Shown piece by piece: positions 1-365 of a DNA stretch of 365 nucleotides. Position 1 is the first letter of the stretch. Each line of letters begins with the position of its first letter. Source of the DNA: Escherichia coli (GTDB lineage: Bacteria; Pseudomonadota; Gammaproteobacteria; Enterobacterales; Enterobacteriaceae); assembly GCF_003334405.1 (NCBI RefSeq), contig NZ_QOWM01000068.1; one strand, given 5' to 3'. A program made the translations under genes and the position numbers. A model generated the notes under the pieces. The model was not told the DNA's origin, searched no databases, and saw only the letters and a program-made list of their open reading frames with translations.

Positions 1-365
1 GCGCTGTTGGTCGCCAGGTAAAGATGCGGGCTTAACCGGATATCCGGCGGCAGCGCCCCCCACAGCCGCGCCAGCGTATGGCCGTCCGGCTGTGCTGCCT
101 TACCACCGCGCACCAGCCACATTGACTCACTGCGGCTGTACACCGCCTCCCCCGGCAGCAGCGGCTCAAAGTGAATGCTCCGCCCGCCGTTGTCGTTGAG
201 TATCAGTCCGTCATCACGTAGCTGTAAGCGGATATCAGAAGGCGCTTTCCAGCCGGGGCCGAAAACGCCCACCGGTGCAGGCGTCTTCGTCCGGTAGCTG
301 CTGTAGGTGCGGGAGAGAATGAACGGCAGCGGGCCGGGCAGCGCAAGGTCCGTCTCGCCGGGCAG
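1..365 (-). CDS. rhs: Internal fragment of an Rhs-family core protein (YD-repeat polymorphic toxin), N-terminal conserved region; partial at both ends
   Basis: Seen in sequence: the reverse-complement frame starting at + position 365 is open for 121 codons with no stop, and the trailing partial codon GC fits the Ala that I recall following ...LATNS in Rhs proteins. All other frames contain stops (for example minus frame 2 hits TGA after about 50 codons, minus frame 3 hits TGA after about 43 codons, + frame 3 stops at 33-35). Recall, not a search: the translation matches the conserved N-terminal region of E. coli Rhs core proteins (RhsA/B/C type), beginning roughly 55-60 residues into the protein, after the PAAR-like motif. 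High G+C (about 66%) also fits the known GC-rich Rhs core. Paralog is not assignable, so the symbol is given at family level only. Confidence 0.85.
   Translation of the reverse strand, partial: MPGETDLALPGPLPFILSRTYSSYRTKTPAPVGVFGPGWKAPSDIRLQLRDDGLILNDNGGRSIHFEPLLPGEAVYSRSESMWLVRGGKAAQPDGHTLARLWGALPPDIRLSPHLYLATNS

What the first reader, a model, noticed from the sequence alone, without database searches (positions are those of the whole stretch)
1..365. No canonical YD dipeptide in the encoded 121 residues: window precedes the repeat shell
The translation contains four Tyr residues (TYSSYR, VYSRS, LYLAT) and none is followed by Asp, so the YxYDxxGR-type repeats that define the Rhs shell have not started. 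The segment is instead rich in Pro, Gly, Leu and Arg. The stretch LRDDGLILNDNGGRSIHF loosely resembles a degenerate repeat hairpin (D-x-x-G ... G-R), which may mark the transition into the shell.
Basis: partly seen in the sequence, partly recalled or inferred. Interest (0 to 1): 0.2.

Follow-up and report, generated by a model that had tools for sequence, protein, structure and literature searches.

The report
Rhs toxin cage N-terminal plug

Summary
The minus-strand frame gives 121 residues with four Tyr and no YD, and no YD/RHS-repeat model hits the window, even at E ≤ 10 with Pfam or E ≤ 1000 with a profile built from RhsD's own repeats. The lack of YD is not significant in itself: 78% of shuffles also lack it.

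The window is 100% identical to E. coli K-12 rhsD and encodes residues 58-178 of 1426. It is not a featureless pre-shell segment. Residues 46-123 match Pfam DUF6531 (E = 6e-18), which the Tse5 cryo-EM paper identifies as the N-terminal plug of the Rhs cocoon. RhsD P48 aligns with Tse5 P48, the first residue of the Tse5 shell fragment after the K47|P48 cleavage.

It is the last hairpin of the plug and is homologous to the Tse5 residues that hold the N-terminal peptide. Its likeness to a YD repeat is weak (hhalign P = 0.018).

The first repeat-like sequence starts at residue ~208, and the first YD is at residue 330. Verdict: already known, low interest.

The parts
3..365 (-). Coding sequence for RhsD residues 58-178 (121 codons). 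Window nt 1-2 belong to codon 179.
   Evidence: It is the only open frame across the window. It is 100% identical to rhsD of E. coli K-12 MG1655 and many other strains, and the peptide sits at residues 58-178 of the 1426-aa protein. NCBIfam RHS_core NF041261 aligns window aa 1-121 to model positions 58-178 (254 bits).
156..365 (-). N-terminal plug ('cork') domain of the Rhs cocoon, RhsD residues 58-127. The domain starts at P48, ten residues upstream of the window.
   Evidence: Pfam DUF6531 PF20148 matches window aa 4-66 (E = 8e-15) and RhsD 46-123 (E = 5.8e-18). The Tse5 plug is residues 48-124 and is equated with DUF6531 (PMC10684867). Tse5 A124 aligns with RhsD L127 and the RhsA cork end S386 aligns with RhsD P125. 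The AF2 fragment superposes on solved Rhs plugs.
168..209 (-). Conserved DxxGR β-hairpin that ends the plug (RhsD G110-F123: GLILN-DNGGR-SIHF).
   Evidence: AF2 gives strands 110-114 and 120-123 with the turn at 115-119. In 35 homologs D115 is kept in 32, G118 in 32, R119 in 34, I121 in 27 and F123 in 34. The stretch aligns to Tse5 D112-F120, and Tse5 R116, I118 and F120, which contact Tse5-NT, are identical in RhsD. hhalign to a YD-repeat profile gives P = 0.018.
3..155 (-). First elements after the plug, RhsD 128-178: β-hairpin 131-143 (conserved S134-x-S136-E137..W140-L-x-R143-G-G), two short helices (156-160, 164-167) and strand 173-176. This is the rim of the cocoon's N-terminal aperture. 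No YD-repeat signature.

Best explanation
The window is an internal piece of the rhsD gene of E. coli, read on the minus strand. It encodes residues 58-178 of the Rhs core protein.

Residues 58-~126 are most of the N-terminal plug domain (Pfam DUF6531, called 'cork' in RhsA and 'N-terminal plug' in Tse5). This is a small β-rich domain that caps the N-terminal opening of the YD-repeat cocoon in which the C-terminal toxin is held. The plug begins at P48, within a conserved G-x-P-V-N-P-x-L-G-A-K-V-L motif. That motif aligns with the mapped N-terminal autocleavage sites of Tse5 (K47|P48) and RhsA (H304|P305).

The plug ends in a conserved DxxGR β-hairpin (RhsD 110-123). By homology with Tse5, this hairpin holds the short PAAR-like N-terminal peptide inside the cocoon. 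Residues 128-178 form the next hairpin and a short helical loop at the rim of the aperture, ahead of the first recognisable repeats (from ~208; canonical YD from 330).

Shown here: gene identity, domain assignment, lack of YD-repeat signal, conservation, and structural similarity of the predicted fold to solved Rhs plugs.

Inferred by homology and not shown here: that RhsD is actually cleaved at N47|P48, that the plug seals the cage, and that R119, I121 and F123 contact the N-terminal peptide.
For: Identity: megablast gives 100% identity to rhsD in K-12 and many other strains, with matches in 3761 of 5426 E. coli genomes. NCBIfam RHS_core scores 2787.7 bits against a cutoff of 2000.

Domain: DUF6531 matches with E = 8e-15 on the window and 5.8e-18 on the full protein at residues 46-123.

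Sequence homology to solved structures:
- The window matches Tse5 8cp6_B with E = 3e-12.
- RhsD 48-169 aligns to chain residues 1-118 with 41% identity.

Literature:
- Tse5: DUF6531 is the N-terminal plug at residues 48-124, cleavage is at K47|P48, and plug residues Q114, R116-P121 bind Tse5-NT (PMC10684867).
- RhsA: the cork is residues 305-386 and cleavage is at P305 (PMC8765631).
- Rhs1: the N-terminal plug is residues 272-420 and carries a PVYVASGE motif (PMC8636562).

Structure:
- The AF2 model of 1-1200 has pLDDT 86 and pTM 0.79 and matches Tse5 with Foldseek E = 1e-82 and TM 0.84.
- The AF2 model of 48-180 has pLDDT 88.
- With Foldseek the fragment's top 11 hits are all T6SS Rhs.

Conservation in 35 homologs that are mostly under 50% identical: P48, V49, G54, D63, R76, Y78, S80, G93, W96 and R143 are invariant.

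No repeat signal.
Against: - The placement rests on superposition scores and on homology to Tse5 and RhsA.
- The plug/barrel boundary depends on the authors. Tse5 and RhsA end the plug at positions equivalent to RhsD 125-127, whereas the Rhs1 paper extends the 'plug' (seal plus Ig-like domain) to a position that would include the whole window.
- Three of the seven Tse5 plug residues reported to bind Tse5-NT differ in RhsD (Q114→G117, R117→S120, G119→H122).
- From my own knowledge, E. coli K-12 has no T6SS, so whether RhsD is ever mounted, cleaved or delivered in that strain is unknown.
Confidence: 0.9

Rival explanations
1. One reading: the window is a Pro/Gly-rich N-terminal segment or linker that lies before the Rhs shell, with the hairpin marking the entry into the repeat spiral.
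For: There is no YD dipeptide and no RHS_repeat or self-profile hit in the window. Pro is enriched relative to the repeat region. Jackson et al. 2009 treated the first 365-695 aa of Rhs proteins as a separate 'clade-specific N-terminal domain' (PMC2935791).
Against: The region is a conserved, confidently folded domain with a Pfam family of its own. It aligns from residue 1 of the solved Tse5-Shell chain, so it is part of the shell polypeptide and forms its cap. The next repeat-like sequence begins about 85 residues after the hairpin, so the hairpin is not a junction.
Confidence: 0.05
2. The window already belongs to the repeat spiral. The hairpin 110-123 and the following hairpin 131-143 would be highly degenerate YD repeats, so the plug would be built from diverged repeat units rather than being a distinct domain.
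For: hhalign aligns only window aa 57-77 (NDNGGRSIHFEPLLPGEAVYS) to the YD profile in register (N-D for Y-D, G-R for G-R, Y-S for Y-E), with P = 0.018. The DxxGR turn is the element that forms each YD hairpin in Tse5. At the 'Y' position the homologs have F in 12 and H in 6 of 35, giving FDxxGRxITF in many relatives. AF2 predicts a β-hairpin there.
Against: The hhalign probability is only 2.6%. Pfam and TIGRFAM repeat models and a self-built HMM find nothing there. The authors of three solved structures assign this hairpin to the plug and not the barrel. The rest of the plug (55-107) shows no repeat likeness.
Confidence: 0.2
3. The older view: the N-terminal region of E. coli Rhs is a surface ligand- or carbohydrate-binding module rather than part of a toxin cage.
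For: Only the historical association of YD repeats with carbohydrate binding, as quoted in PMC2935791.
Against: The whole-protein model superposes on encapsulating Rhs cocoons. No lectin or adhesin fold appears among the fragment's structural hits above the noise.
Confidence: 0.02

Closest known systems
Pseudomonas aeruginosa Tse5 (PA2684), N-terminal plug, PDB 8CP6 chain B residues 48-124 and following
   Different: The P1 residue of the putative cleavage site is Asn in RhsD and Lys in Tse5. Three of the NT-contacting residues differ. RhsD has a short insertion at 82-85 (RTKTPAPVG vs N-P-RIG). The toxin domains are unrelated: RhsD carries DUF4329, whereas Tse5-CT is a pore former. Cleavage and secretion have not been demonstrated for RhsD.
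Pseudomonas protegens RhsA 'cork' of the N-terminal plug domain (residues 305-386), PDB 7Q97
   Different: RhsA has a long N-terminal region of 304 residues (prePAAR, TMD, PAAR, seal peptide, anchor helix), where RhsD has only ~47 residues and no predicted anchor helix. Identity is about 30%.
Photorhabdus laumondii Rhs1 N-terminal plug (seal plus Ig-like domain, residues 272-420), PDB 7PQ5
   Different: Sequence similarity is much weaker (E = 0.036). Rhs1 has Asp at P1 (D288, required for cleavage) where RhsD has Asn. The authors draw the plug boundary later, which would put the whole window inside the 'plug'.
Canonical YD / RHS repeat (Pfam PF05593, TIGR01643)
   Same: It is a β-hairpin with a DxxGR turn followed by a hydrophobic-x-aromatic pattern. 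There is a weak in-register hhalign match.
   Different: There is no Tyr-Asp and no significant HMM score. In the solved homologs this hairpin is located in the cap, not in the spiral wall.

Membership tests
RHS element core protein (NCBIfam NF041261, E. coli RhsA-D type) | Full-length match above the curated cutoff | tested here: met
   The score is 2787.7 bits against a cutoff of 2000, over residues 1-1258. The window alone aligns to model positions 58-178.
RHS element core protein (NCBIfam NF041261, E. coli RhsA-D type) | Multiple YD repeats and a C-terminal Rhs-associated core ending in paired DPxGL motifs | tested here: met
   TIGR01643 matches in 9 stretches and TIGR03696 matches at 1181-1258. 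There are 8 Pfam RHS_repeat hits with E < 0.001. DPMGL occurs at 1232 and 1254. All of these lie outside the window.
DUF6531 / Rhs N-terminal plug domain (Pfam PF20148) | Significant match to the Pfam model | tested here: met
   E = 8.2e-15 on the window (aa 4-66, model positions 15-74 of 74). E = 5.8e-18 on the full protein (residues 46-123, model positions 1-74). The window lacks the first ~12 residues of the domain.
DUF6531 / Rhs N-terminal plug domain (Pfam PF20148) | Fold superposes on the plug of solved Rhs cocoons | tested here: met
DUF6531 / Rhs N-terminal plug domain (Pfam PF20148) | Immediately follows the N-terminal autocleavage motif (x|P-V-x-x-x-x-G) | tested here: met
   RhsD N47|P48-VNPLLGAK aligns with Tse5 K47|P48 and RhsA H304|P305. 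P48, V49 and G54 are invariant in 35 homologs, while P1 varies (N 15, S 12, H 3 and others). The motif lies 10 residues upstream of the window.
DUF6531 / Rhs N-terminal plug domain (Pfam PF20148) | Actual autoproteolysis, sealing of the cocoon and retention of the N-terminal peptide | not testable with these tools
   This needs protein biochemistry or model coordinates. It is inferred from Tse5 and RhsA.
YD / RHS repeat (Pfam PF05593, TIGR01643), applied to the window | Significant repeat-HMM match within residues 58-178 | tested here: not met
   There is no Pfam hit at E ≤ 10 in the window. There is no hit with the self-built repeat HMM with filters off at E ≤ 1000. hhalign gives a probability of 2.6%.
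YD / RHS repeat (Pfam PF05593, TIGR01643), applied to the window | Y-D dipeptide followed by xxGR forming a hairpin turn | tested here: inconclusive
   The DxxGR turn is present, conserved and predicted as a hairpin. The preceding residue is Asn in RhsD, and F or H in 18 of 35 homologs. In Tse5 the Tyr is reported to be commonly replaced by other residues including Trp and Phe.
Tc-toxin TcB/YenB constriction domain (reported homolog of the RhsA plug) | Structural similarity of the fragment to TcB/YenB/SpvB N-terminal domains | tested here: inconclusive

The most novel reading that the evidence does not exclude
The residues responsible for N-terminal autocleavage of Rhs proteins are still unknown (both PMC8765631 and PMC10684867 say so). 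The window carries most of the family-invariant residues that follow the cleavage site: D63, R76, Y78, S80, G93, W96 and R143. One of them, for example the invariant D63 in the E-x-D motif 15 residues after P48, could take part in that cleavage. A second, smaller possibility is that the plug's terminal hairpin is a relic YD repeat, meaning the cap evolved from the wall.
Probability: 0.12. Interest if true: 0.4.

Novelty: already known. Interest (0 to 1): 0.1.

Why it matters
It matters little beyond correct annotation. The result corrects the label from "pre-shell segment" to "N-terminal plug of the Rhs cage". It also shows that the E. coli K-12 RhsD N-terminus is built like Pseudomonas Tse5, with a short PAAR-like peptide, a conserved cleavage-site motif and a DUF6531 plug. 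This makes Tse5 the best structural template for the E. coli RhsA-D family. Apart from the list of invariant plug residues, which could guide mutagenesis on the unresolved N-terminal cleavage mechanism, nothing here opens a new question.

Tried and rejected
- Other DNA-level features in the window: Rfam at E ≤ 1 gave only a sub-threshold isrB match (17 bits against a gathering score of 35). There are no direct or inverted repeats. The other five frames hold only short ORFs of 35-47 aa inside the rhsD frame. All were rejected as chance.
- Repeat detection: Pfam, TIGRFAM and a self-built HMM of RhsD's own repeats all failed to find a YD repeat in the window. hhalign gave only a marginal match at the hairpin.
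- An Asn-cyclisation mechanism for cleavage at N47|P48, as at the N|PTH sites of FlhB/YscU (own knowledge): rejected as a general mechanism, because the P1 residue is N in only 15 of 35 homologs (S 12, H 3, and G, A, Q, D, T once each) and is K in Tse5, H in RhsA and D in Rhs1.
- A TseI-type Glu/Glu mechanism at +7/+8: RhsD has A55-K56 there, as RhsA does, so it does not apply.

Full report
**1. What the sequence is**

The window has one frame open from end to end: minus-strand frame 1, 121 codons. Megablast finds it at 100% identity in rhsD of E. coli K-12 MG1655 and many other strains. Matches occur in 3761 of 5426 complete E. coli genomes, with a median of 3 copies per genome. In the K-12 locus the gene runs from 6830 to 11110 and the window maps to 7001-7365, which is residues 58-178 of the 1426-residue RhsD. 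NCBIfam's RHS_core equivalog scores the whole protein at 2787.7 bits (cutoff 2000) and aligns the window to model positions 58-178. The window is 66% G+C. This fits the G+C-rich rhs core (60-67%), which contrasts with the A+T-rich C-terminal tip (33-38%).

**2. Checking the observation**

- There are four Tyr (aa 21, 24, 76, 116), and none is followed by Asp.
- LRDDGLILNDNGGRSIHF is at aa 49-66 and contains one DxxGR match.

The absence of YD is not statistically notable as a dipeptide count. 78% of shuffles of the same residues lack YD. At the YD density of RhsD's own repeat region, a 121-residue stretch has none with probability 0.074.

On composition, Pro and Leu are enriched relative to the repeat region. 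Gly is not significantly enriched and Arg is lower.

The stronger evidence comes from profile searches:
- Pfam RHS_repeat gives nothing inside residues 58-178, even at E ≤ 10.
- A profile built from RhsD's own eleven repeats, run with filters off at E ≤ 1000, also gives nothing.

Along the protein, the first faint repeat-like signal is at 208-243 (Pfam E = 1.6; hhalign probability 85%). A borderline Pfam hit is at 320-357, the first hit below 0.001 is at 365-396, and the first YD dipeptide is at residue 330.

**3. What the window encodes**

The window is not a linker. Pfam DUF6531 matches window aa 4-66 (E = 8e-15) and RhsD 46-123 (E = 5.8e-18).

Against sequences of solved structures, the window matches the Tse5 shell chain 8cp6_B at E = 3e-12. 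With the longer query, RhsD P48 aligns exactly with residue 1 of that chain. The chain is 1121 residues long, which equals Tse5 residues 48-1168. The Tse5 cryo-EM paper reports four relevant points (PMC10684867):
- Tse5 is cleaved between K47 and P48.
- Residues 48-124 form the N-terminal plug that closes the barrel.
- This plug is DUF6531.

Transferring these positions through the alignment (41% identity over 117 residues) gives:
- The Tse5 plug end A124 corresponds to RhsD L127, which is window aa 70.
- R116, I118 and F120 correspond to identical R119, I121 and F123.
- Q114, R117 and G119 correspond to G117, S120 and H122, which differ.
- The aperture residues S131, S133 and E134 correspond to identical S134, S136 and E137.

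An independent boundary comes from P. protegens RhsA, whose cork is residues 305-386 with cleavage at H304|P305 (PMC8765631). Its end falls at RhsD P125. In Photorhabdus Rhs1 the authors draw a larger plug, residues 272-420, made of a seal plus an Ig-like domain (PMC8636562). The profile match to Rhs1 covers residues 297-390, so by that definition the whole window would be plug.

**4. Structural test**

I collected homologs with an exhaustive HMMER search, which found 57,767 proteins at E ≤ 0.001. About 50 of the best 150 carry the window region, mostly at positions ~40-180, which is the same layout as RhsD.

With a 46-sequence alignment, AlphaFold2 models RhsD 1-1200 at mean pLDDT 86.2 and pTM 0.79. 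The 10-residue block means over residues 51-180, which cover the window, are 76-92. In the window the model has:
- strands at 55-65, 73-79, 103-107, 110-114, 120-123, 131-134 and 139-143
- two short helices at 156-160 and 164-167
- a strand at 173-176

The whole model matches Tse5 (Foldseek E = 1e-82, TM 0.84 normalised to the target). After it come all the other T6SS Rhs cocoons, then teneurins and Tc-toxin BC components.

I then folded residues 48-180 alone from a 27-sequence alignment. The model has pLDDT 88.3 and the same secondary structure. This fragment hits only T6SS Rhs structures at the top of both searches:
- Foldseek: ranks 1-11, with Tse5 at TM 0.72 normalised to the query.

[quoted passage not shown] Tse5 was itself a row of that alignment, so its hit is partly circular. 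The others are independent.

The location of the domain in the aperture is therefore inferred from these superpositions and from the literature, not measured.

**5.

AlphaFold places D115-N-G-G-R119 as the turn between strands 110-114 and 120-123. Across 35 homologs, D115 is kept in 32, G118 in 32, R119 in 34, I121 in 27 and F123 in 34. The family consensus is L-[F/N/H]-D-x-x-G-R-x-I-x-F. In Tse5 the DxxGR motif is what forms the turn of every YD hairpin.

hhalign finds exactly one place in the window that aligns to a YD-repeat profile, and it is this one, in register. The match is weak (P = 0.018, probability 2.6%).

The hairpin does not mark the entry into the repeats, however. It closes the plug, and by homology it is the element that grips the N-terminal peptide. 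Whether it is a relic repeat remains open (rival 2, about 0.2).

**6. Mechanism**

The best-supported reading (0.9) is as follows. The window encodes most of the cap of the RhsD toxin cage and the first structural elements at the rim of its N-terminal opening. The cap sits directly after a conserved P-V-N-P-x-L-G-A-K-V-L motif, in which P48, V49 and G54 are invariant. That motif aligns with the mapped N-terminal cleavage sites of Tse5 and RhsA.

Cleavage of RhsD itself is an inference. The catalytic mechanism of this N-terminal cleavage is unknown in the literature. Two known or plausible mechanisms do not fit RhsD:
- The TseI-type Glu-Glu at +7/+8 is replaced by A55-K56.
- The P1 residue varies too much across homologs for an Asn-specific chemistry.

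**7. Comparison with what is known, and novelty**

This is a member of a described domain family (DUF6531, the Rhs N-terminal plug) in one of the longest-known rhs genes. The closest solved relative is Tse5, which shares the unusual short N-terminus of ~47 residues with only a vestigial PAAR-like piece (Pfam PAAR_motif E = 0.28 at residues 3-20; pLDDT below 50 for residues 1-33). Nothing in the window departs from that template.

Verdict: already known, interest 0.1. The most novel reading still open is that one of the invariant window residues (D63, R76, Y78, S80, W96, R143) takes part in the unexplained N-terminal autocleavage. I put this at about 0.12. The Tse5 paper describes barrel-wall residues, not plug residues, as anchoring the N-terminal peptide next to the cleavage site.

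Noticed in passing
L001 6830-6970 (RhsD residues 1-47, upstream of the window): The RhsD N-terminus is only ~47 residues long and has a vestigial PAAR-like piece (Pfam PAAR_motif E = 0.28, residues 3-20 against model positions 52-69 of 70; AF2 pLDDT below 50 for residues 1-33). This is the same layout as the 5-kDa Tse5-NT. E. coli K-12 has no T6SS (own knowledge), so how or whether RhsD is exported there is unclear.
   Followed up: partly
L001 6968-6997 (RhsD G46-N47-P48-VNPLLGAK, 10 residues before the window): This is a conserved putative N-terminal autocleavage motif. P48, V49 and G54 are invariant in 35 homologs, while the P1 residue varies (N 15, S 12, H 3 and others). It aligns with the Tse5 K47|P48 and RhsA H304|P305 sites.
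   Followed up: partly
window nt 177-179 (D63), 138-140 (R76), 132-134 (Y78), 126-128 (S80), 87-89 (G93), 78-80 (W96) counted in L001 as codons 63-96; Several residues inside the window are invariant across 35 homologs that are mostly under 50% identical: D63, R76, Y78, S80, G93, W96 and R143. Their roles are not described in the papers I read. (The nt triplets in the 'where' field were not computed or checked in any call; the residue numbers are the reliable reference.)
   Followed up: no
L001 ~10700-11060 (RhsD residues ~1292-1411): The C-terminal tip of RhsD is a DUF4329 domain (Pfam E = 1.6e-37), downstream of paired DPMGL motifs at 1232 and 1254. G+C falls from ~61% to 33-38% at the core/tip junction.
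   Followed up: partly
L001 11542-12228: This is annotated as an orphan 'RHS repeat-associated core domain' pseudogene lacking its N-terminus. It lies just after ybbC, the gene immediately downstream of rhsD, and looks like a displaced C-terminal toxin cassette of the kind described by Jackson et al. 2009.
   Followed up: no
L001 ~7583-7705 (RhsD residues 252-292): In the AF2 model, helix 252-265 is followed by a low-confidence, Ser-rich stretch (SSLSSSDSSRPLSASAF; pLDDT 58-65, below 50 at 271-275). It interrupts the pre-YD part of the barrel. From, Tse5 seems to lack most of it.
   Followed up: no
L001 ~10050-10260 (RhsD residues 1074-1143): The AF2 model predicts a block of five α-helices inside the otherwise all-β cocoon, just before the C-terminal plug.
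   Followed up: no
window 262-355, minus strand: There is a sub-threshold Rfam match to the isrB sRNA (17.2 bits against a gathering score of 35, E = 0.85) inside the coding frame. I take it to be chance.
   Followed up: yes
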